Shown here piece after piece: positions 12,773 to 47,938 of a stretch of DNA of 64,000 nucleotides. Position 1 is the first letter of the stretch, and the number at the start of each line of letters is the position of its first letter. Where the stretch lies: positions 423,671-487,670 of the forward strand of contig CALVMW010000001.1 in assembly GCA_944349335.1 (NCBI GenBank). The letters are read 5' to 3'. The notes beneath the pieces are model-generated. The model ran no database searches. It was given only the letters and a program-made list of their open reading frames with translations, and was not told the origin of the DNA. Origin of the DNA: an uncultured Bacilli bacterium. Its GTDB lineage: Bacteria > Bacillota_I > Bacilli_A > RFN20 > CAG-288. Both the position numbers and the translations under genes were made by a program.

Positions 12773-15385
12773 ATGAAAACAAAAATAAAATTTTTAACAA
12801 CTCTCGTAACTATTGCTGCTCTCTCTTTTTCTTGTTCTGAAAATTCATCTTTATCGATTCCTTCTTCCAATTCTTCAACAACCTCCTCTTCTACTTCAAG
12901 TTCAAGTTCATCCTCTTCTTCCTCTTCTTCATCAAGCTCATCTAGTTCTAGCTCAAGTTCATCTATCAGCGTCGCTACTTACTACACTATTCAATGGCTA
13001 AATTATGATAATAGCGTCTTAGAGACAGATGTCGTCTTAGAAGGTGAGATGCCTACTTACGATGGAGAAACACCAACTAAACCCTCTTCTACTTTCTATG
13101 ATTACACCTTCACCGGTTGGAATAAAGAAGTTGTCCCTGCTACACAAGACACCTCTTATACTGCAACCTTTACCGAAAAAATCCGCAGTTATAATGTAAC
13201 TTGGTTAAATTATGATGGTTCAACTTTAGCTATAGATTCCTTTACAGCTGGTTCTATCCCCTCCTACGATTTCTCAACTCACGGCGTACCTACTAGAGAG
13301 TCAGATGCTCAATATTCTTACACCTTCTCCGGTTGGTCCCCTGCTATCACTGATACAACTTATGTTGAAAGTGATTTAACCTTTACCGCTACTTATTCAA
13401 GCACTGTCAATACTTACAACATCACAACTTATCTAAATATTGGTCCTAATGCTGGTTCTGGAACTAATCATAGCTATGAATACGGTACTAGTGTTAATGC
13501 TAGCGACTTAGGAACACCTAGTTATCCTGGCTATAACTTTATCGGTTGGTTCTATGATTCAAGTTGTACTGAGCCTGTTTCTTTCCCCATAACAGTCACT
13601 GAAAATATCTCGATTTATGCTGGATTTGAAGCTGCTATAACTTATCGTTACGATGAAGAAGCTCAATACTACATCGTCTTAGGCATCGAAGATGATACAT
13701 TAACAGATATAAACTTTATTCCTAGTGAATATGATGATGGAGTTAATGGTCTCCATCCTGTCGGTGCTATCGGCACAAACGCTTTCAAAGGTATGACTAA
13801 TTTAAAATCAATAACCATTCCTGAAAGTGTCAACATCATCAAATTATCCGCTTTTGAAAACTGCACTAACCTTACAACAGTCTCTCTCTCTTCCGGTTTA
13901 GTCACAATTGGAAATAAAGCTTTCCTAAATTGCTCCAGCCTCAATGAAATTAATATTCCTACTACAGTTACTACTATAGGTAACAACGCCTTTAGAGGTT
14001 GCTCTAGTTTAACTGCTTTACAATTAGATAATGTTACCTCCATCGGCAGCTTTGCTCTTTATGGATGCACTGATTTAACTGAAGTAAACTTACCTAACTG
14101 CACTACTATCGGAACTAATGCCTTTAGTGAATCAACTAATCTCACTACAGTCAACATCCCCTTAGTTACAACTATTCCTCAATCTGCTTTTGAAAGATGC
14201 ACATCCTTAACTTCTCTTACCTTATCTTCTTCTCTTACAACAATCCATAAATCGGCTTTTAGAGATTGTGAAAAGCTCCCGTATTTAGTTATTCCTAGCA
14301 CGATAACAACTATCGAACGCTTAGCTTTTGCTGGCTGTGATTCTCTTACCCTTTTCTTTGATGTCGCTCGTCCTAGTGATGATATCTATAATCTCTCAAC
14401 CTTTGATGGCGAAGCTTATTTTAAAGGTGAGTGGACATATGATGAAAATAACATCCCTGTCCCTAATAGCGATATTGAAGAACCCACTGATCCCGGTGAT
14501 ATTGTTGAATTAGAAGTTTCTATTCCTTCTTTACCTACTCTCGAAGCTGGTGATCAATATGCTATCAATCCTACAGCTAACAAGGCTGGTGCTACTTTCG
14601 TTTACACTTCTTTAAATCCCGATATCGCTATTGTCGATGCTAATGGTGTTATCACTGCTGTTGCTACTGGCGTTGCTGAAATTAAAGTCTCTGCTACTTT
14701 AGGTGATGAAACTGATGCAAGCAGAGTTACCTTAGTCGTCAGAGATTCTTCTGTCAAAATCGAAGCTGCCTTCACTGGTAATAAAGTCGTTTTTGCTGAT
14801 GATCCTGATTTCAACTACACAAGAGTTGAAGGTCGCGTTGTCAAAGATGATGGTCAAAACGATTATAGCCAGAGACTTGTTTATACAACCGAAGATACAG
14901 ATTTAATCGAACTCGATGAAAATACTGGCCACATCATCGGTGTCTGGCAAGGCCAAGCTAACGTTAATATCACTTCCACTGACAATCCTGAAGTTTCTAC
15001 TTGGATTGTTGTTACTATCAGATTCAGAAATCAAAACGCTGCTGATTGGATCCACTTCAATACTGAAGATGCCCATTTATATGTCGGCGATAAATTAAGT
15101 GTTAATGATAGAATCACTTTCGATGAAGACAATGATGGTCTTACTGGTTTCACAGCTGATCACATCGCTTTACTCAAAGAAAGACTCACTTGGACTCTTG
15201 AAGGTAATGATGGTTATCTTGAAGAGACCGCTAATGGTGAATATACCGCTATCGCTGCTACACCCGCTACTACTCTTCCTACCGCCAGAACAGATATTGC
15301 TGATTTAGTCGCTACCGTTACAATCCACATCCATGATGAAATCGGTGGTTACTTCTTCAGAACTGGTGATACAGCTGCTGAATAA
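12773..15385 (+). CDS. Surface lipoprotein (870 aa) with Listeria-Bacteroides (Flg_new) repeats, BspA-type leucine-rich repeats and Big_2 Ig-like domains
   Basis: Lipobox LSFSCS; roughly 40-residue poly-Ser linker. YTFTGW / YTFSGW / YNFIGWFYD repeats; IGxNAFxxCxxLTxV LRR units; PDIAIVDANGVITAVATGVAEIKVSA Big_2 motif. Confidence 0.75.
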   Translation: MKTKIKFLTTLVTIAALSFSCSENSSLSIPSSNSSTTSSSTSSSSSSSSSSSSSSSSSSSSSSSISVATYYTIQWLNYDNSVLETDVVLEGEMPTYDGETPTKPSSTFYDYTFTGWNKEVVPATQDTSYTATFTEKIRSYNVTWLNYDGSTLAIDSFTAGSIPSYDFSTHGVPTRESDAQYSYTFSGWSPAITDTTYVESDLTFTATYSSTVNTYNITTYLNIGPNAGSGTNHSYEYGTSVNASDLGTPSYPGYNFIGWFYDSSCTEPVSFPITVTENISIYAGFEAAITYRYDEEAQYYIVLGIEDDTLTDINFIPSEYDDGVNGLHPVGAIGTNAFKGMTNLKSITIPESVNIIKLSAFENCTNLTTVSLSSGLVTIGNKAFLNCSSLNEINIPTTVTTIGNNAFRGCSSLTALQLDNVTSIGSFALYGCTDLTEVNLPNCTTIGTNAFSESTNLTTVNIPLVTTIPQSAFERCTSLTSLTLSSSLTTIHKSAFRDCEKLPYLVIPSTITTIERLAFAGCDSLTLFFDVARPSDDIYNLSTFDGEAYFKGEWTYDENNIPVPNSDIEEPTDPGDIVELEVSIPSLPTLEAGDQYAINPTANKAGATFVYTSLNPDIAIVDANGVITAVATGVAEIKVSATLGDETDASRVTLVVRDSSVKIEAAFTGNKVVFADDPDFNYTRVEGRVVKDDGQNDYSQRLVYTTEDTDLIELDENTGHIIGVWQGQANVNITSTDNPEVSTWIVVTIRFRNQNAADWIHFNTEDAHLYVGDKLSVNDRITFDEDNDGLTGFTADHIALLKERLTWTLEGNDGYLEETANGEYTAIAATPATTLPTARTDIADLVATVTIHIHDEIGGYFFRTGDTAAE

Positions 15386-15392
15386 AAAATAG

Positions 15393-15430
15393 ATAAGCAC
15401 CGATCCTTTTAGGATTGGTGCTTATTGTTC
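15393..15430 (+). terminator. Rho-independent terminator after the lipoprotein gene
   Basis: ATAAGCACCGATCC-TTTT-AGGATTGGTGCTTAT hairpin plus T-rich tail. Confidence 0.7.
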
Positions 15431-15453
15431 TTAAAAGAAAAATCTTTTATAAT
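15425..15453 (+). promoter_or_regulatory. Candidate sigma70 promoter for the jetABC-like operon (TTGTTC, 17 nt, TATAAT)
   Basis: TTGTTC at 15425-15430, a 17-nt spacer, TATAAT at 15448-15453. Confidence 0.5.
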
Positions 15454-15489
15454 TTTTGTTTGATTACTCCACTTGAAAGGATAGATATA

Positions 15490-16941
15490 TTGTCTAAGTT
15501 ATTTGAAAGAATTCCCGCCGATCTCTTCTCCCCTTTATCTCGCAAATATAGGTCAGTTTATGCTTTTGCTTTACTTTGTCTTTATCGTTGCTTAAAGACT
15601 TATAAAACCGATATTAAAAAGGTTGATTATATTAACATGATTAAAAATCAAGGTGTCGACCTGATGTCCCTTTTTAATGTCGATATGGATAAACTCGACG
15701 ATAAGGAAGAGGAAGATCAAGTTGAAATTAAAGAAGATGGTGATATTTTAAATAACAAAGTTAATTATATTGTCCGTAAACTAGCTAATTGTGGTTGGTT
15801 TATTATAAGTAAAGATTCAAACACTAATATCGAATACATCTATATCCCCGCTTACTCAATTCAATTTTTGAAAGTGATCGACGATTTAACTTCTGATATC
15901 GGCTCTTATTTACCTTTAGTCCATCAAACTTATGCTGAACTAAAAATGGAAGATGATAAAGAAGACGATTATATGTATCGAGCTCTTTTAAATGCTAGAA
16001 ATAATGCTGATTCTATCGAGATGTCTGTCACTTTATTAAGGCAGCAAATATGCGTCTTCGGTAATCGTTTAACTTCTGTTTTAGATCCTAATATCGCTCT
16101 AAAGCAACACTTTGATGATTATAGAGTCAATGTTTCTGATAAATATTATCATCCGATGAAAACTTTCGATTCCTTAGGCCTCTACTCTCAACCAACTATA
16201 TCTATTTTAAGAAAGTGGCTAAAAAGTGAAAGAATCATCGCCCTTTTAGTTAAAGAAGCTAAAAGTGAACCGATGAACCGCAACAGAGATGAAGCGCAAC
16301 TGACAAAAGAGATGATAAAAATAATCAACGAAATCATCGATATTTTCTCTCGCTTGACTGCTAGCTTTAATGAAATAGATAAGGCTAATGCTAACTATAC
16401 AGAGCAAGTACAGAAAAAGATTAATTATCTCTCTTCAACTGATAAAACTGTCAAAGGTAAAATCGATCGTATAATCCTAGCTTTAGCTAATGAAATTAAA
16501 AATAATCCCTCCTTAAGATATGATGAATTGCCCCTATTAGAGCAAGCTAGTGAAACTCTCCTATTAAATAGGCAAGGTTATATTGATACTTTCTCTCTTA
16601 CGATGCCCTTTAAACGTGCAGTTAGCGAGAATAGTGAACCTCTGCCCCTAGATGATGATTTTATACCTGATGACGATCTTTTAGCTGATTATTTTGATAA
16701 CCAATTAAATCGCTTTTCTGACCGCTCTATTCTTAACTTTATAGATAGCATCATGGAAGGAAAAGATGAAATAACAACTACAGATATTCCTATTGAAAAT
16801 GCTGATCAACTAGTTATGATGATTTTAGCGATCATCAAAGCTGTCCTTGGAGTTATACCTTATACAGTCACTAAATTATCTGACCGTATCGACTATGCTA
16901 ACTATTATATGCCGTTATATAAATTTGTCCGTAAAAAGTAG
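15490..16941 (+). CDS. JetA/MksF-like kleisin-family protein (Wadjet / MksBEF-like system subunit)
   Basis: About 484 aa from a TTG start (GAAAGGA RBS 9 nt upstream; the track's longer ORF from 15415 overlaps the terminator). Assigned from size and position: first gene of a 3-gene set followed by a roughly 210-aa protein and a roughly 1140-aa SMC-like ATPase. No motif confirmed by eye. Confidence 0.5.
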   Translation: MSKLFERIPADLFSPLSRKYRSVYAFALLCLYRCLKTYKTDIKKVDYINMIKNQGVDLMSLFNVDMDKLDDKEEEDQVEIKEDGDILNNKVNYIVRKLANCGWFIISKDSNTNIEYIYIPAYSIQFLKVIDDLTSDIGSYLPLVHQTYAELKMEDDKEDDYMYRALLNARNNADSIEMSVTLLRQQICVFGNRLTSVLDPNIALKQHFDDYRVNVSDKYYHPMKTFDSLGLYSQPTISILRKWLKSERIIALLVKEAKSEPMNRNRDEAQLTKEMIKIINEIIDIFSRLTASFNEIDKANANYTEQVQKKINYLSSTDKTVKGKIDRIILALANEIKNNPSLRYDELPLLEQASETLLLNRQGYIDTFSLTMPFKRAVSENSEPLPLDDDFIPDDDLLADYFDNQLNRFSDRSILNFIDSIMEGKDEITTTDIPIENADQLVMMILAIIKAVLGVIPYTVTKLSDRIDYANYYMPLYKFVRKK

Positions 16942-16950
16942 GAGGAGATA

Positions 16951-17592
16951 ATGTTTTTAGAGGATTTTGAGAAATTAACGCGTTCAGAAAAAGCTCTTTT
17001 TTCAGAAGCTGTCAACGACCTTCTCTATCAATGCTTCATAGTTAGGCGCATTTACGATCGCAAAATGAAAATGTTCAAAACTAACCCCGATTATTTATAT
17101 ATAGATCGTCATTTTGAATTGATTGAAGATTATCTATCCTATATAAATATTTCTCTTTCTAAAAGCGATGAAGATGGTATTATTTTCATTTCATCAGGAA
17201 TCGAGAAAAATCATCTTAGATTAGATGTTGTCACAACACTGATTGTCTACGCTTTAAGATCATATTATGAAGATCAAATAAGCCGTTTCCCGGAAGAGAT
17301 CACTCCTCGCATGACCTATGGTATTTTAAATACTTTCTTACAAGAGACAGGTTTATCTAACTTAACTAAAAGACTCTCTTCTTCAACGATTGCGAGTTCT
17401 TTAAGAGTTTTAGATTCCTACAACATCATCACAAAGATTGAAGGATCTTATGGTGATCCTGCTTATAGCTTCTGTATTCTCCCTACTATCCGTTATATCA
17501 TCTCTTCAGAAAAGATGAACACTCTCTATAACTTTTTAACTAAAAAAGATGACAATCTCATCTTAGATAGTTTTGAAAGGAGCGAAGAATGA
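16951..17592 (+). CDS. JetB/MksE-like protein
   Basis: 213 aa, AGGAGG RBS, ATGA start/stop overlap with the downstream SMC-like gene. Assignment by size and operon position. Confidence 0.5.
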   Translation: MFLEDFEKLTRSEKALFSEAVNDLLYQCFIVRRIYDRKMKMFKTNPDYLYIDRHFELIEDYLSYINISLSKSDEDGIIFISSGIEKNHLRLDVVTTLIVYALRSYYEDQISRFPEEITPRMTYGILNTFLQETGLSNLTKRLSSSTIASSLRVLDSYNIITKIEGSYGDPAYSFCILPTIRYIISSEKMNTLYNFLTKKDDNLILDSFERSEE

Positions 17593-20500
17593 AAGTACTA
17601 AAACGCCTTCGCCTAATTAATTGGCACTACTTTTCTAACACAACTACTGACCTTAAGCAGATCACTCTTTTAACTGGTCCTAACGGTACAGGTAAATCTA
17701 CTATCATCGACGCCTTACAGATTGTTTTAATAGGCTCGACTAGAGCTGAATATTTCAATAAAGCTGCTAATGAAACCAAAGGTAGAGGACGTACTCTTCT
17801 CTCTTATTTAAGAGGGCAGACAGGTATATCTGACGATGGAAAAGTCATTAACCTTCGCAAAGGTAACTTCACTTCTTATATCGCTATTGAAATTTATGAT
17901 GATGTTGAAAATAAAACCTTCTCTTTAGGTGCTGTTTTTGATGTCGATAGCGCTGATAATATTTCCAAACACTATTTTTATATCGCTTCTCCCTTCTTAA
18001 AAAATAACTTCTCAAATTCTGAAACAGAAAGCGATTTAAAAAAAGTACGTCCAATGATGTATAAAGAACTTTCTAGTTATGTTAGAAAGAATTATTCCAG
18101 TGGTGAATATCATTTCTTTGATACTGATATAGATTATCAAAACTTTATCAAAGTCGCTTTTGGTAACCTTCCTGATAAATACTTCTCTCTATTAAGAAAA
18201 GCTATCTCTTTTGCACCTATCAATAACATCTCTCAATTTATCACTGATTACATCTGTGATGCCGATAAAACCATCGATATCAAACCGATGCAAAAAAACA
18301 TCGAACAATATAAATTATTAGAAAACGAAGCTAAAAAACTTAGAGTTAAACAAGAAGCTTTATTAAAAATAAAAGAAAGCTACACTAACTATTCTTCCTA
18401 TGCTGAGAAGATGAATCTTTTAACTTATGTTAATGCTCGCGTCCAATATGAAGAAGCAAAAAAGAAGCTCGATTCCTTAAAAGAAAAATTAGAAAAAGAT
18501 AATAATCGTCTTTCAGAGATTTCTTCTAACCTCAATTTATTTGATAAACAAATAGAAGATCTTCGCTCTGACTTATCTTCATACCAAGCTAAAAAACTTC
18601 AGTCTAAGAATTATTCTTTAACAGAAAAGCTTTCCATGAAGAAAGACAATATCACTAAACAGATAGCTTCTATTCAAATGGCTGTCTCTACTAGCATTTC
18701 CAAAATCAATAATTATGTACACGATTATATGGATGCCTGTCGCAACTTTGCTTCCTTCTATACCCAATTTGATTCAAATCGTTTCGGTGACAAAATTAAA
18801 GAAAACTTCGATCAATTGATCGAATTATGTAAAGATTTAACTATCCAATCAAAAGCTTTAATGGACAATATCGATAACGATAAAATTGATTTTAACGACT
18901 TAAAAGCCTTCCGTAACGATATGGAAGCCTTAAGAAATCAAGCTATCGCTATGAAACAGAGCTTAAGACGTGAATTATACGATACTTCTGCTGATTTACA
19001 AGCTTTACAGAAGGATTTAACTAATGTCAATTCTGGTAAAAAGCCTTTTGATCAGATAGGTCCTAGCTATATGGCTATTAAAAACTCCTTAGAATCAGCT
19101 CTAAAGATGAGGCACACTGATGCTTATGTTCATATTTATTGTGACTTAGTTGACGTTGATGATCCAGAGTGGACAATGGCTTTAGAAGCTGCTTTATACA
19201 ATCAAAAATTTAACTTCTTTGTTAATCCTGAATATTATCAAGAAGCTAATCGCCTATTAAAAGAACTAACTGAAACTTATCGTTATTATCGTGTCTCCTT
19301 AGTAGATAGCGATAGATTATTAAGTAGTGATATCTATGCCGATGATGATTCAATAGCAAATCTTATCTCTACTAACGATGAAGGAGCGAGAGCTTATACT
19401 GATTATTTATTAGGCCGAATTAAAAAGTGTGAAACTTTTGAAGAAGCGAGAAACTCTGGTTCAGGTCTATTAAAAGACTGTACCGGTTATCGCGCATATG
19501 GAACGTGGTACTTAAATAAAGCCCACGCTCGTATCCCCTTCTTAGGTACAAAAGTTTCTTCTGATACTAAAGCTATATCAGCAAAAGATTATCAAGATAT
19601 GAATAGACGTTATAATCTTTATACTGAAGCTTTAAATAAGTTAGATACTCTCTTATCTTTACCTTTAATGTCCCAAGCTGAATGCGACACCTATCAAAGC
19701 GATATCGAAAGGATGAAGGATATCTCCGGATTACAAGAATCTATTAAGGATATCGATACCCAGATGCATGATGTTTCAATGGGTGATATGGTTGAAGTAG
19801 AAAACAAAATTCAAGCTATCGAAGAAGATATCAAGACGATCAATGATGAAAGAGAAGAGATTCTCACGGAAAGAGGATCTCTCATCAATGAAACTCGCCA
19901 CTTAAATGGAGAAGAGATACCTGTCGCTGATAGAAATTATCAATCTACTTTAGCAGAGTTAAAAAGCTTTGACGAACATATCGTCAATGAACAATATGCT
20001 CCTTTCTATGAAAAACTTATCGAACAAGAGGGTATGACTCTTTCAATGATTAGCAAAGAAGCTATGAAAGAGTATATTCAAGCTCAAAATAAACAAAATA
20101 GCGACCGTACTTTATTACTCCGTTTACGCTCTGACTACTGCTCTACTTATCATCTTAACTACGACTATACTAATATGGCAACTAACGAAGAGTTTGATAA
20201 AGAATTAGAAAGTATTTCTAAAGTTATGCTTCCTGATTATGAAGAAAAAATAAAACAAGCTCACGATAGTTCTGTCAAAGAGTTTAAAGATGATTTTGTT
20301 TATAAATTGAGAACTGCTATCGAGACAGTCAACACCCAGATTGTCGAATTAAATCAAGCTTTAGAAGACTGCCACTTCGGTGTTGATACCTATCAATTTA
20401 AAGTTACTCCAAGTAAAGATTATCTTGAATACTATAATATGATTATGGATCCGCTCCTTTTAAAAGCTGGAGATGCGGAAAATCTCTTTATGGAGAAATA

Positions 20501-21020
20501 TAAAGAGACAATGGATTCCTTATTCAACCTAATCTCATCTTCGACAAGTGCAACTGGTGATGAGAAAAATCAAATTTTAGATAACATTAAAATCTTTACT
20601 ACCTATACAACTTATATGAATTTTGATTTGTTAGTTTATCGCGGTGGAATCGAAAATAAACAAGTTATATCTTTAGGCCGTTCTTTCACCTCTCAATCAG
20701 GTGGTGAAACACAAACTCCTTTCTACATCTCAATTCTCGCTTCTTTTGCTTCTTTATGTCGTGTAAATAATGTCAAAGATAACAATACTCTACGTTTAGT
20801 AGTCTTCGATGAAGCCTTCTCAAAGATGGACTCTTCAAGAATTATGCAATCGACTGATCTTTTCCGTCAGTTTGGTTTACAAGCTATCTTATCCACACCA
20901 GCTGAAAAATTACGTGATCTTGTCTCTTACTTAGATCTCATCTTAGTCGCGATTCATGATGATAAACATAAGAGATCTGGTTTAGATATATACGAAGAAA
21001 AGAAAGATAAAGATAGCTAA
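17589..21020 (+). CDS. JetC/MksB-like SMC-family ATPase (1143 aa)
   Basis: N-terminal LRLINWHYF...TLLTGPNGTGKSTIIDALQIVLIGS (MukB/MksB-like Walker A head), long central coiled-coil-like region, C-terminal ABC signature SQSGGETQ, Walker B LRLVVFDEAF and H-loop. Confidence 0.7.
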   Translation: MKVLKRLRLINWHYFSNTTTDLKQITLLTGPNGTGKSTIIDALQIVLIGSTRAEYFNKAANETKGRGRTLLSYLRGQTGISDDGKVINLRKGNFTSYIAIEIYDDVENKTFSLGAVFDVDSADNISKHYFYIASPFLKNNFSNSETESDLKKVRPMMYKELSSYVRKNYSSGEYHFFDTDIDYQNFIKVAFGNLPDKYFSLLRKAISFAPINNISQFITDYICDADKTIDIKPMQKNIEQYKLLENEAKKLRVKQEALLKIKESYTNYSSYAEKMNLLTYVNARVQYEEAKKKLDSLKEKLEKDNNRLSEISSNLNLFDKQIEDLRSDLSSYQAKKLQSKNYSLTEKLSMKKDNITKQIASIQMAVSTSISKINNYVHDYMDACRNFASFYTQFDSNRFGDKIKENFDQLIELCKDLTIQSKALMDNIDNDKIDFNDLKAFRNDMEALRNQAIAMKQSLRRELYDTSADLQALQKDLTNVNSGKKPFDQIGPSYMAIKNSLESALKMRHTDAYVHIYCDLVDVDDPEWTMALEAALYNQKFNFFVNPEYYQEANRLLKELTETYRYYRVSLVDSDRLLSSDIYADDDSIANLISTNDEGARAYTDYLLGRIKKCETFEEARNSGSGLLKDCTGYRAYGTWYLNKAHARIPFLGTKVSSDTKAISAKDYQDMNRRYNLYTEALNKLDTLLSLPLMSQAECDTYQSDIERMKDISGLQESIKDIDTQMHDVSMGDMVEVENKIQAIEEDIKTINDEREEILTERGSLINETRHLNGEEIPVADRNYQSTLAELKSFDEHIVNEQYAPFYEKLIEQEGMTLSMISKEAMKEYIQAQNKQNSDRTLLLRLRSDYCSTYHLNYDYTNMATNEEFDKELESISKVMLPDYEEKIKQAHDSSVKEFKDDFVYKLRTAIETVNTQIVELNQALEDCHFGVDTYQFKVTPSKDYLEYYNMIMDPLLLKAGDAENLFMEKYKETMDSLFNLISSSTSATGDEKNQILDNIKIFTTYTTYMNFDLLVYRGGIENKQVISLGRSFTSQSGGETQTPFYISILASFASLCRVNNVKDNNTLRLVVFDEAFSKMDSSRIMQSTDLFRQFGLQAILSTPAEKLRDLVSYLDLILVAIHDDKHKRSGLDIYEEKKDKDS

Positions 21021-21070
21021 TTACATTTGTAAATAATCAATACTTTTTCAATGTCTTCTTTATTTCTTTT

Positions 21071-21117
21071 CCTCCCTGTTTTATAATGTTAAAAGTGAAA
21101 GCGTTTACAACAGGAGG
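21071..21117 (+). promoter_or_regulatory. Leader hairpin that would sequester the glgC Shine-Dalgarno sequence
   Basis: CCTCCCTGTT at 21071-21080 is complementary to AACAGGAGG at 21109-21117, which contains the glgC SD. The 28-nt loop includes TTATAAT. Confidence 0.3.
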
Positions 21118-21123
21118 ACAAAA

Positions 21124-33411: not shown

Positions 33412-34098
33412 ATGAATCTTATTACTATCGCTTCTTTTGGTCTTTTAGCTTCTATTGCCCTCATATTCCTCTACTTTGTTCTTCTTATAATCTCGAATAA
33501 TAAATTATTAAAAGAAAGAAGGTTATCGATCAAAAACTCTTTCCCTTATGAATTTTACATGGAATTTCCTATCAGTATAAGAGTCGCTTTATATTCTCTT
33601 TTATTCCTCTCTTTAATCGCTTCTATCATCGGTATCTCATGTTTCTTCTTAGCTTTTAATACAACATATATGCTCATGACAATGTCACTTTATGTAATAT
33701 CTATCATCGCCATTACCTTCTCTAATGTCATTTCTCTTTCCCATTATAAAATTCACATTGCTCTTTCACTTATCTCTTTCTTCTTTTTTAGCTATTCTGC
33801 CCTTCTTATCACTTTTTCAACAAGCTTAAATAGTGCTCTTATCTATGAAGAAAACTTCAATTTACCGATTATTGTCATCTTAGGCGTATTAGGCTTTTCT
33901 ATTTTATTAGCGATGCTTAATCCTCGCATAAAAAATTGGAGTAAAAAAGAAAGATGCGAAGATAATGGTAAAACATTCTATGTTAAACCTAAAATTAATT
34001 ATTTAGCTCTTTATGAATGGATTTTTTTAATCGCCATTTACTTCAGTAATTTCTTATTATATATAAATATTATTGTTTCTGGAGACACATCAATATGA
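33412..34098 (+). CDS. Polytopic membrane protein, unknown function
   Basis: About 6 predicted TM helices; translationally coupled to its neighbours. Confidence 0.45.
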   Translation: MNLITIASFGLLASIALIFLYFVLLIISNNKLLKERRLSIKNSFPYEFYMEFPISIRVALYSLLFLSLIASIIGISCFFLAFNTTYMLMTMSLYVISIIAITFSNVISLSHYKIHIALSLISFFFFSYSALLITFSTSLNSALIYEENFNLPIIVILGVLGFSILLAMLNPRIKNWSKKERCEDNGKTFYVKPKINYLALYEWIFLIAIYFSNFLLYINIIVSGDTSI

Positions 34099-46618: not shown

Positions 46619-47938
46619 TCATTTTAATGCTAAGACTTCCCAATGACCTATTCTATTAGTTCCAACTCTTATGAGCACTCCCGAATCTTTCAAATTTTTA
46701 ATTGATTTTTTTATAGTAGAAATCTCTTTATTAAGTTTATTAGCTAATTCAGCTATTGTTATATCGTTCTTTTCTTTGATTAAAGATAAAATCGCTGATT
46801 GTGTCTTAGATAGTCGAATGGTGGAATAAATAGTGGAATCATTGGTGGATTTATGGTGGAAATTTAAGTCAGGTAAAATGATTCTAAAATAAGTATTATT
46901 TACATCAAATGAAGGCTTTAAATCACTACTTTCATAAGCCTCTTGAATTCGTTTTATGCCTTTACCAAAATTTTCAATATAGTTAAACTTATCTAGAACT
47001 CGTACTAATCCTGGGTTTCTAAAAGTTTGATATCCACGAAGTATTTGTTCCAATGTTCCGTCCAAAATTCCACCTGGACTAGTAATTTCTACTCTATCAT
47101 CATAAAACTCAATTTTGATATTAGATGGTTTCAAATAATTAGCATGACAGATAGCATTCAATATTGCTTCTCTTAAACTTACGCCTGGATATGATTTTGT
47201 CTCTATTCTTTGAGCTTGATATGGAACGATAATCGCTGAAGTTGTATTAAGCAAATTAGCATATTCAAGAGTTTGATCAGCAATTTTCAAAATAGATCCA
47301 TTAAAAACTTTCTTTGCTTTAAAGTTCAAGTCTTTATCGTATGAAGCAAATTTAATTTCAAGTGGATTTTCATCACTGATTACTAAACCTAAATTTGTAA
47401 AGTTGCCTTCTTTGTTTTTCAAACCTAAAGATAACAATTCTCTTTCACTAAATTCAATATTTTTAGCTTTCGCAAGTTCAATAGCATACGTAAAATGAAG
47501 GTTTTGATTTTCAGCTATTTCTTTTTCAAAAGATATCTTCATGCTGTCCATAAGCATAAAAAGAATCTCTTCATCAGTCAGTTGCTGTTTACTTCTACCT
47601 ACTCTTATATATGTTCCACTTGGTCTAGGTATAGTAGATGCAACATAGTACGGCTTTTTGATACCTTCATTAATATGAATAACTAAAACATTGTCATTAT
47701 CATATCTAAATGAAACTAATTGTTTTGCACTAGGTTTGATTCCTTCTGTTACTATTGATGATATCTTTTGATCATATATATCTTTTGAATCATGAGGAAT
47801 GCCTACCACATTTCCATAATCATCAACACCAATATAAATAGTTCCACCATGAGCATTCAAAAAAGCGATGATTTCTTTGTCTAAATCTTTCACTATCTCA
47901 CGCTTAAGTTCAACTTTGTCGCTTTCTTCGTATCTCAC
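46619..47938 (-). CDS. AlbA_2 (Schlafen-like) domain protein with a C-terminal HATPase_c_4-like domain and wHTH (annotated in databases as an ATP-dependent DNA helicase RecG-related putative transcriptional regulator)
   Basis: ESDKVELKREIVKD...IIAFLNAHGGTIYIGVDDYGNVVGI AlbA_2 signature; C-terminal wHTH (ILSLIKEKNDITIAELANKL). Confidence 0.65.
   Translation of the reverse strand: MRYEESDKVELKREIVKDLDKEIIAFLNAHGGTIYIGVDDYGNVVGIPHDSKDIYDQKISSIVTEGIKPSAKQLVSFRYDNDNVLVIHINEGIKKPYYVASTIPRPSGTYIRVGRSKQQLTDEEILFMLMDSMKISFEKEIAENQNLHFTYAIELAKAKNIEFSERELLSLGLKNKEGNFTNLGLVISDENPLEIKFASYDKDLNFKAKKVFNGSILKIADQTLEYANLLNTTSAIIVPYQAQRIETKSYPGVSLREAILNAICHANYLKPSNIKIEFYDDRVEITSPGGILDGTLEQILRGYQTFRNPGLVRVLDKFNYIENFGKGIKRIQEAYESSDLKPSFDVNNTYFRIILPDLNFHHKSTNDSTIYSTIRLSKTQSAILSLIKEKNDITIAELANKLNKEISTIKKSIKNLKDSGVLIRVGTNRIGHWEVLALK

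What the first reader, a model, noticed from the sequence alone, without database searches (positions are those of the whole stretch)
15425..21020. JetA/JetB/JetC-like (MksF/MksE/MksB-like) SMC operon with no JetD/MksG nuclease gene
Three tightly coupled genes with their own promoter: about 484 aa, 213 aa and 1143 aa. The AGGAGG RBS and ATGA overlap are seen directly. The last gene has an unmistakable MukB/MksB-type SMC head: LINWHYF...GPNGTGKST at the N-terminus and SQSGGETQ / VVFDEAF at the C-terminus. This order and these sizes match jetA-jetB-jetC of Wadjet. Wadjet is defined as a four-gene system whose DNA-cleaving subunit JetD (Toprim/DUF2220) is essential for anti-plasmid activity. Here the operon ends at 21020 and the next gene, 100 bp away, is glgC, with a terminator-less leader. 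No Toprim-like ORF exists anywhere in the 64 kb. So this is either an orphan MksBEF-type condensin in a low-GC organism that would normally rely on SMC-ScpAB, or a Wadjet-like system that has lost its nuclease or uses a distally encoded or novel effector. It sits between a lineage-specific surface-lipoprotein gene and the glycogen operon, consistent with insertion.
Basis: partly seen in the sequence, partly recalled or inferred. Interest (0 to 1): 0.75.

Follow-up and report, generated by a model that had tools for sequence, protein, structure and literature searches.

The report
Nuclease-less Wadjet SMC operon, inherited vertically
This is an intact three-gene Wadjet-type (JetA-JetB-JetC) DNA-motor operon that lacks the DNA-cutting subunit JetD, and it is an old, strongly conserved core-genome feature of a whole group of uncultured gut Bacilli, so it probably now works on the chromosome like an MksBEF condensin, not as plasmid defence.

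Summary
jetA (15490-16941, 483 aa), jetB (16951-17592, 213 aa) and jetC (17589-21020, 1143 aa) are a tightly coupled type I Wadjet-like operon (PADLOC JetA1 4e-87, JetB1 4e-60, JetC1 9e-287). No JetD/Toprim gene was found in the 64 kb window or the next 10 kb.

The "insertion" reading is wrong. 30 further informative loci from related uncultured low-GC Bacilli, including a sister clade at only 36% JetC identity, also carry jetABC without jetD. It is nearly always next to glgCDA among housekeeping genes. JetC divergence tracks GlgC, GlgA and RlmN (r 0.92-0.97). dN/dS for all three jet genes is 0.01-0.06, the same as the housekeeping neighbours, and the ATPase motifs are invariant.

The JetD-less JetC sequences form one clade (100/100 NJ bootstraps). 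The nearest outgroup sampled (32% identity, scattered across Clostridia) has JetD in both contexts checked.

Best reading: jetD was lost once, long ago, from a type I Wadjet system, and the JetABC loop-extruding motor was domesticated. This is a Bacillota parallel to MksBEF, and three-gene MksBEF systems are already known.

I could not test whether these genomes still have Smc-ScpAB, or a jetD elsewhere in the genome.

The parts
15395..15432 (+). Terminator-like hairpin (AAGCACCGATCC-TTTTA-GGATTGGTGCTT) plus a T-rich tail after the upstream lipoprotein gene. It separates that gene from jetA.
   Evidence: Read directly from the sequence. The consensus scan did not list it, so this is a visual call only.
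15425..15453 (+). Candidate sigma-70-type promoter for jetABC: TTGTTC (15425-15430), 17-nt spacer, TATAAT (15448-15453).
   Evidence: Read directly. The -35 hexamer is weak, and promoter-like sites in the region are no more frequent than in shuffles. Inferred, not shown.
15490..16941 (+). jetA: kleisin subunit, 483 aa, TTG start preceded by AAAGGA at 15476-15481.
   Evidence: Pfam PF18982 JetA 4e-66. PADLOC JetA1 4e-87 over nearly the full model, 2-461 of 464. Gene call of 483 aa in the public assembly. dN/dS 0.007-0.06.
16951..17592 (+). jetB: KITE (MukE-like) subunit, 213 aa, with AGGAGG RBS at 16940-16945.
   Evidence: Pfam DUF4194 38 bits, above its cut-off. PADLOC JetB1 4e-60. A family profile hits the solved JetB chains 8dk1 and 8as8. 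dN/dS 0-0.06.
17589..21020 (+). jetC: SMC-like ABC ATPase, 1143 aa, start overlapping the jetB stop (ATGA). It has Walker A at residue 30, signature SGGE at 1037, Walker B FDEAF at 1073, and an SMC-type hinge at 519-622.
   Evidence: PADLOC JetC1 9e-287, full length. Pfam AAA_29, SbcC_Walker_B and SMC_hinge. The best solved relatives are JetC chains 9qxt, 8as8 and 8dk2. The motifs are invariant in 29 clade members. dN/dS 0.013-0.06.
21021..21123 (+). 103-nt jetC-glgC spacer with no terminator-like site, a TATAAT at about 21083, and an AGGAGG before the glgC ATG. Read-through from jetC into glgCDA is possible.
   Evidence: Sequence and terminator scan. No remnant of jetD was found by tblastn or HMM.

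Best explanation
The locus encodes a complete, functional type I Wadjet-derived SMC motor. It consists of a JetC ATPase dimer, a JetA kleisin and a JetB KITE dimer. Its lineage lost the JetD Toprim nuclease once, long ago, and has since passed jetABC on vertically as a core-genome operon next to the glycogen genes. Without a nuclease the complex can still bind DNA, hydrolyse ATP and extrude loops, but it cannot cleave DNA. Its most likely role is therefore MksBEF/MukBEF-like organisation or segregation of the host chromosome, not plasmid destruction. What is shown: family identity, absence of jetD from the operon and its neighbourhood in 31 informative related loci, monophyly of the JetD-less JetC clade, co-divergence with housekeeping neighbours, housekeeping-level purifying selection, and intact ATPase motifs. 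What is inferred: loop extrusion (by homology to E. coli and P. aeruginosa JetABC) and action on the chromosome (by analogy with P. aeruginosa MksBEF).
For: Identity. No JetD in the window, in 10 kb beyond it, or in the flanks (up to 10 kb) of related loci. The jetABC-glgCDA position is conserved in 25 informative genome loci (45-69% JetC identity), in L035 and L036 (43-44%), and in two of the three sister-clade loci L041-L043 (36-37%). L042 has DUF3137 downstream instead of glgC. Co-divergence of JetC with GlgC (r 0.97), GlgA (0.97) and RlmN (0.92). dN/dS is 0.007-0.06 for jetA, jetB and jetC against 0.013-0.031 for glgC, glgA and rlmN in the same genome pairs. Walker A, signature and Walker B motifs are invariant in 29 sequences. 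The JetD-less JetC sequences are monophyletic in 100 of 100 NJ bootstraps; the nearest outgroup family, scattered across Clostridia, carries JetD (PF09983) in both contexts checked. JetA and JetC are the same length as in JetD+ relatives (483 vs 471 aa, 1143 vs 1138 aa), so no nuclease domain has been fused on. No relative was found on viral contigs. [quoted passage not shown]
Against: No functional data exist for any member of this clade. Only about 74 kb of this genome and 10 kb or less on each side of each relative could be read, so a distal jetD or another effector is not excluded. Whether Smc-ScpAB is present is unknown, so the need for a second condensin is unknown. Strong purifying selection shows that the genes are used, not what for; a long-standing nuclease-independent defence role would give the same signal. 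The tree is neighbour-joining on JetC only, and the JetD status of the intermediate representatives (P0127-P0131, P0134) and of the other 31-34% representatives in the tree (P0136-P0160) was not checked. Co-divergence with linked genes would also arise if the whole block moved together, although rlmN and glgC are ordinary chromosomal genes.
Confidence: 0.6

Rival explanations
1. It is still an anti-plasmid or anti-MGE system. JetABC senses small circular DNA by total extrusion and then hands it to a nuclease encoded elsewhere (a distal JetD or an unrelated effector), or it silences or compacts the DNA without cutting, as proposed for Smc5/6.
For: All three proteins score best against defence-system (Wadjet type I) models. 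The closest outgroup is a canonical JetABCD. The JetB N-terminus (MFxEEYEKL) is almost invariant in the clade, which could mark a partner-binding site. Most of the genome could not be searched.
Against: In every characterised Wadjet system jetD lies in the operon, and cognate JetD is required for cleavage (bioRxiv 10.1101/2025.03.10.642339). No gene is a conserved neighbour across both JetD-less clades except glgCDA. The distribution is vertical and core-like with dN/dS like housekeeping genes, unlike the patchy spread of the JetD+ outgroup. There are no defence-island neighbours.
Confidence: 0.27
2. jetABC is a recently inserted mobile block, or a decaying remnant of a Wadjet system that lost jetD by deletion.
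For: The upstream neighbour in this genome is a species-specific lipoprotein gene, and the upstream gene order differs from relatives: no glgB-plsC here. One MAG (L030) has jetC split into two ORFs.
Against: The same position next to glgCDA recurs across 25 informative species-level genomes and in two of the three sister-clade loci at 36-37% identity. Co-divergence with flanking genes gives r 0.92-0.97. dN/dS is 0.01-0.06 and the catalytic motifs are invariant. GC content is like the surroundings. The 103-nt spacer holds no jetD remnant.
Confidence: 0.03
3. The operon belongs to another SMC-like system (Lamassu LmuB, RecN, SbcC/Rad50, canonical Smc-ScpAB or MukBEF proper) and only resembles Wadjet.
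For: JetC gives weak hits to LmuB (1e-13), Smc TIGR02168 (49 bits) and the MukB N-terminus (24 bits), as any SMC head does.
Against: The JetC1 model scores 953 bits over its full length, against 49 bits for LmuB. TIGR02168 lies far below its 567-bit cut-off. Both partner genes are specifically JetA (PF18982) and JetB (DUF4194). There is no LmuA, ScpA/B or MukE/F match.
Confidence: 0.01

Closest known systems
Type I Wadjet / JetABCD (E. coli GF4-3 JET, P. aeruginosa PA14 JetABCD; MksBEFG of C. glutamicum; EptABCD of M. smegmatis)
   Same: Same gene order and sizes for jetA-jetB-jetC. The JetA family is DUF5716/PF18982, JetB is DUF4194, and JetC has an SMC-type hinge and intact ATPase motifs. 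The best solved-structure matches are JetC and JetB chains. The nearest sequence relatives outside the clade are canonical JetABCD operons.
   Different: There is no jetD, here or in any of 31 informative loci of the clade. Inheritance is vertical and core-genome-like among housekeeping genes, in place of a patchy defence-island distribution. JetC is only about 32% identical to the nearest JetD+ family, and it matches the solved JetCs only weakly (E about 1e-15, mainly over the N-terminal third).
MksBEF (three-gene MukBEF-like condensin, e.g. P. aeruginosa; Petrushenko et al. 2011, as cited in bioRxiv 10.1101/2022.10.04.510915 and PMC10586767)
   Same: A kleisin-KITE-SMC operon with no nuclease. 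[quoted passage not shown] The expected activity is chromosomal loop extrusion.
   Different: JetB is below the Pfam MksE threshold (20.2 bits against a cut-off of 27), so this looks like a separate, Bacillota-specific derivation. MksBEF is described as scattered by HGT, whereas this clade is fixed and syntenic across whole lineages. No functional data exist.
MukBEF of gamma-proteobacteria
   Same: A lineage-wide, vertically inherited MukBEF-like SMC complex. The kleisin probably dimerises, since the full-length JetA match includes the N-terminal region.
   Different: Sequence similarity is very distant (MukB N-terminal Pfam hit of 24 bits over 54 residues only). MukBEF replaced Smc-ScpAB in its hosts, and whether that happened here is unknown.
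JetD-less jetABC on the 252-kb replicon of Agathobacter rectalis (NZ_CP143948.1)
   Same: An annotated JetA, DUF4194 and SbcC/MukB-like operon followed by an unrelated gene (gamma carbonic anhydrase), with no JetD.
   Different: Its JetC is only about 24% identical to the window's JetC and falls outside the clade in the tree, so it is probably an independent loss. It lies on a secondary replicon, not in a conserved chromosomal site.

Membership tests
Wadjet type I (JetABCD) | JetA kleisin of the DUF5716/PF18982 family | tested here: met
   PF18982 4e-66, 223.8 bits against a cut-off of 26.2. PADLOC JetA1 4e-87.
Wadjet type I (JetABCD) | JetB KITE subunit (DUF4194/PF13835) | tested here: met
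   38 bits against a cut-off of 32.7. PADLOC JetB1 4e-60. A profile hits the solved JetB chain 8dk1 at E 5e-4.
Wadjet type I (JetABCD) | JetC SMC-like ATPase with Walker A, Walker B, signature motif and hinge | tested here: met
   PADLOC JetC1 9e-287. AAA_29, SbcC_Walker_B and SMC_hinge. Motifs invariant in 29 relatives. Best PDB hits are JetC chains.
Wadjet type I (JetABCD) | JetD Toprim nuclease (PF09983/DUF2220) encoded in the operon | tested here: not met
   The gene after jetC is glgC. No JetD was found in 64 kb plus 10 kb by Pfam annotation, PADLOC, tblastn or a JetD HMM. None was found in the 30 further informative related loci.
Wadjet type I (JetABCD) | JetD encoded anywhere in the genome | not testable with these tools
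Wadjet type I (JetABCD) | N-terminal JetB 'IFDR' motif that docks JetD (PMC10586767) | tested here: inconclusive
   The solved JetBs align from about residue 70 of 250, so they have about 25 extra N-terminal residues. These residues are missing from this whole Bacillota subfamily, including its JetD+ members. The clade's own N-terminus, MFxEEYEKL, is conserved.
Wadjet type I (JetABCD) | Restriction of circular plasmids | not testable with these tools
   This needs an experiment.
MksBEF-type condensin | Three-gene kleisin-KITE-SMC operon without a nuclease gene | tested here: met
MksBEF-type condensin | Sequence membership in Pfam MksE (PF21980) | tested here: not met
   20.2 bits, below the cut-off of 27. 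The protein fits JetB/DUF4194 models better.
MksBEF-type condensin | Contribution to chromosome organisation or segregation | not testable with these tools
   Only indirect support: vertical, core-like inheritance and dN/dS like housekeeping genes.
Smc-ScpAB | Smc equivalog TIGR02168 with ScpA and ScpB partners | tested here: not met
   49.3 bits against a cut-off of 567. The partner genes are JetA and JetB.
Lamassu | LmuB SMC-like protein with an LmuA effector | tested here: not met
   LmuB 1e-13 against JetC1 9e-287. No LmuA-like gene is adjacent.

The most novel reading that the evidence does not exclude
In this group of genome-reduced, Mollicutes-related gut Bacilli, the domesticated JetABC has become the main or only chromosome-organising SMC complex, replacing Smc-ScpAB. 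That would be a second, independent MukBEF-like replacement. It would offer a living intermediate series from defence Wadjet (the JetD+ Clostridia outgroup at 32-41% identity) to housekeeping condensin.
Probability: 0.15. Interest if true: 0.8.

Novelty: new member of a known kind. Interest (0 to 1): 0.45.

Why it matters
Reviews of the SMC field speculate that MksBEF and MukBEF arose from Wadjet-like defence systems by loss of the nuclease, but clear natural examples are few. This is a large, monophyletic, JetD-less JetABC clade that sits in a fixed chromosomal position and evolves under housekeeping-level constraint. Its closest relatives are canonical, horizontally scattered JetABCD operons. 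That pairing gives a clean comparative system for asking what changes when a plasmid-killing SMC motor is turned to chromosomal work. It also flags that defence-finder tools will report partial 'Wadjet' in these gut lineages, where the genes are probably not defence genes. On its own, a three-gene MksBEF-like operon is not new.

Tried and rejected
1. I checked whether the ORFs that follow jetC in relatives are divergent JetD. They are ComFA-like helicase, ComFC, GH30, GH3, a solute-binding protein and an LRR protein.
2. A conserved 340-400 aa gene lies between jetC and glgC in the 43-46% relatives. I considered it as a novel fourth subunit and rejected it. It is a two-TM membrane protein with no Pfam or PADLOC hit, and in L026 it stays with glgC while transporter genes separate it from jetC.
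3. The JetB IFDR JetD-docking motif as a test of lost JetD binding was inconclusive, because the whole subfamily, including its JetD+ members, lacks the N-terminal extension.
4. A JetA family profile against the PDB gave only spurious hits, and single-sequence JetA and JetB searches gave none.
5. The viral-contig scan for relatives found none.
6. The listing of cluster members, used to get organism names, was uninformative.
7. Literature searches for the Smc or condensin status of RF39/RFN20 found nothing.
8. I looked for Smc in all held loci by motif and size and found only JetC. Ten more kb beyond the window held no Smc and no JetD.
9. The promoter scan gave no more sites than shuffles.
10. 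The 147-aa genes near the operon in the two clades are not homologous to each other, so there is no conserved fourth partner.
11. Rfam and tRNA scans showed nothing in or beside the operon.


Full report
**Observation**

Window 15415-21020 holds three co-directional ORFs.
- The first has its real start at TTG 15490, giving 483 aa. This matches the gene call in the public assembly and the start of the PADLOC match.
- jetB (16951-17592, 213 aa) has an AGGAGG 5 nt upstream.
- jetC (17589-21020, 1143 aa) overlaps the jetB stop as ATGA.
- glgC starts 103 nt after jetC, with no terminator-like site between them.
- A hairpin follows the upstream lipoprotein gene, and a TTGTTC-17-TATAAT lies before jetA. 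The promoter scan is no better than shuffled sequence, so 'own promoter' is plausible, not shown.

**What the genes are**

- JetA: Pfam PF18982 at 4e-66, and PADLOC JetA1 at 4e-87 over nearly the full model.
- JetB: DUF4194 above threshold, and PADLOC JetB1 at 4e-60.
- JetC: AAA_29, SbcC_Walker_B and SMC_hinge domains, and PADLOC JetC1 at 9e-287 over its full length.
- Other SMC families score far lower: LmuB 1e-13, Smc TIGR02168 49 bits against a cut-off of 567, and MksE below its cut-off.
- The best solved relatives of JetC are the JetC chains of E. coli GF4-3 and P. aeruginosa. A JetB family profile hits the solved JetB chains.

This is therefore a type I Wadjet-like JetABC, not Lamassu, RecN, Smc or MukBEF proper.

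**Absence of JetD**

- Precomputed Pfam annotation of every called gene across the window shows no JetD_C, DUF2220 or Toprim.
- PADLOC on ten window ORFs, nine of them without a Pfam hit, found no JetD.
- I took JetD sequences from five canonical operons: Cohnella, Rossellomorea and Butyrivibrio plasmids, and two metagenomic relatives. With them I ran tblastn and an HMM against all six frames of the window and 45 loci (895 kb). Only the five source loci matched.
- Ten kb beyond the right end of the window holds SecA, PrfB, DegV and an amylase.
- JetA and JetC have the same lengths as in JetD+ relatives, so no nuclease domain has been fused on.

**Source and relatives**

The window matches a 449-kb scaffold of an ENA metagenome assembly. 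A scan of species-representative genomes found 29 loci with JetC at 45-69% identity. Most are MAGs labelled Bacilli bacterium, Candidatus Enterosoma sp., Clostridium sp. CAG:568 or uncultured Mollicutes bacterium. From my own knowledge these belong to GTDB order RF39; I did not test that here.

In the 25 loci with enough downstream sequence, jetABC is never followed by jetD. The usual order is (acpS)-glgB-plsC-[AMP-binding/HGSNAT]-jetABC-glgCDA-...-rsmB-rlmN-PP2C-kinase. Where other genes sit between jetC and glgC they are glycosidases, transporters or ComFA/ComFC. More distant members (43-44% identity; L035, L036) have the same arrangement.

In this window the upstream LRR lipoprotein gene has no counterpart in any relative, and glgB-plsC are missing from the 64 kb. 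The variable element is therefore the upstream flank, not jetABC.

**Vertical inheritance and selection**

- Pairwise protein distances of JetC correlate with those of GlgC (r 0.97), GlgA (0.97) and RlmN (0.92) across the loci.
- For the closest genome pairs, Nei-Gojobori dN/dS is 0.007-0.06 for jetA, 0-0.06 for jetB and 0.013-0.06 for jetC. For glgC, glgA and rlmN in the same pairs it is 0.013-0.031.
- Walker A, the signature SGGE and Walker B FDEAF are invariant in 29 sequences.
- GC content of the operon is like its surroundings.
- No relative occurs on viral contigs.

**How deep the JetD-less state goes**

A search of 50%-identity representatives gives an identity ladder of 64, 46, 45, 40-42 and 36%, then a plateau at 31-34%.

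The 36% family is large. It carries source names such as Erysipelotrichales bacterium, Acholeplasmataceae bacterium, Candidatus Onthovivens sp. and Bacilli bacterium. Its three inspected loci read rlmN-PP2C-kinase-rsgA-rpe-membrane protein-(rpmB)-(small gene)-jetABC. In two of them jetABC is followed by glgCDA, and none has jetD.

The next family (32%) is scattered over diverse Clostridia. Both inspected loci carry a 413-aa JetD (PF09983) overlapping the end of jetC.

In a neighbour-joining tree of 49 JetC sequences, the JetD-less group (window clade, intermediates and sister clade) is monophyletic in 100 of 100 bootstraps. It is nested among families whose sampled members have JetD.

Three caveats apply:
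- The tree is NJ on one protein.
- The JetD status of six intermediate representatives, and of the other 31-34% representatives in the tree, was not checked.
- By raw identity the sister clade is slightly closer to the JetD+ outgroup (about 40%) than to the window clade (36-37%). This fits faster evolution on the window branch.

**Interpretation**

The simplest account is a single ancient loss of jetD from a type I Wadjet operon that had settled next to the glycogen genes. The three-subunit motor was then retained under strong constraint.

By homology with the studied JetABC complexes, the motor should be a kleisin-bridged SMC dimer, probably a dimer of motor units because the JetA match is full length. 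It should hydrolyse ATP and extrude DNA loops. Without JetD it has no known way to cut DNA.

Published work describes three-gene MksBEF systems. [quoted passage not shown] I therefore favour a chromosome-directed, condensin-like role (about 0.6).

The main rival (about 0.27) is continued defence through a distal or novel effector, or through nuclease-free silencing. A recent insertion or a decaying remnant is contradicted by the data.

**What could not be settled**

Two questions stay open: whether these genomes still encode Smc-ScpAB, and whether a jetD lies elsewhere in the genome. The genome-collection scan and the context look-ups were exhausted. The held loci contain no second SMC, and no paper addressing this was found.

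An independent JetD-less jetABC on an Agathobacter rectalis replicon shows that nuclease loss is not unique to this clade.

**Verdict**

The system is a new member of the known nuclease-less MksBEF-like kind. What stands out is that it is fixed across whole lineages and has a clear JetD+ sister group. Interest is moderate.

Noticed in passing
L035 11594-12619; L036 11641-12717; L026 16729-17754; L031 14684-15736; L025 13784-14980: A conserved 340-400 aa protein with two predicted TM helices and a C-terminal globular part sits immediately upstream of glgC in the more distant relatives. It has no Pfam or PADLOC match and is absent from the window's own clade. It travels with glgC, not with jetC.
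   Followed up: partly
window 12773-15385 (+): An 870-aa predicted lipoprotein with a serine run of about 45 residues (two threonines near its start) after the signal peptide. Its repeats look BspA/LRR-like by eye and it has no Pfam hit on record. No counterpart exists at this position in any relative, so this gene, not jetABC, is the species-specific insertion.
   Followed up: partly
window 1-64000 compared with L004-L031: Most relatives have acpS-glgB-plsC directly upstream of jetA. The window has no glgB or plsC anywhere in its 64 kb (no tblastn hit), so the upstream flank has been rearranged in this species.
   Followed up: partly
window 46619-47938 (-): A 439-aa protein with SLFN/AlbA_2, HATPase_c_4 and HTH domains. 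It has weak PADLOC matches to pAgo-associated and CARF/HTH models. It could be a regulator or a defence-related gene.
   Followed up: no
L030 10001-11524 and 11538-13409: In one MAG jetC is split into two ORFs (507 and 623 aa). This is either a frameshift or pseudogene in that genome, or an assembly error.
   Followed up: no
L039 2759-8351 (Agathobacter rectalis NZ_CP143948.1, 252-kb replicon): An annotated jetA-DUF4194-jetC operon followed by a gamma carbonic anhydrase gene, with no jetD. Its JetC is about 24% identical to the window's and lies outside the clade, so this is probably an independent nuclease loss.
   Followed up: partly
L015, L017, L018, L030 (record titles): These loci are syntenic with the Bacilli loci and 60-64% identical in JetC, yet their records are titled Alistipes onderdonkii, Oscillospiraceae, Prevotellaceae and Paludibacteraceae. 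The MAG labels or bins are probably wrong.
   Followed up: no
window 16951-16980 (JetB residues 1-10) and the same position in 30 relatives: The JetB N-terminus MFxEEYEK(L/M) is almost invariant in the JetD-less clade, and is similar (MWNELY.KL) in the nearest JetD+ operons. It may be a partner-binding site. Its relation to the E. coli IFDR JetD-docking motif is unresolved.
   Followed up: partly
window 33412-34098 (+); L041 4386-5054; L042 4272-4940: A 222-228 aa multi-pass membrane protein with no Pfam hit is conserved directly after rpe in both clades. That is the position held by thiN/yloS in B. subtilis (gene order from memory).
   Followed up: no
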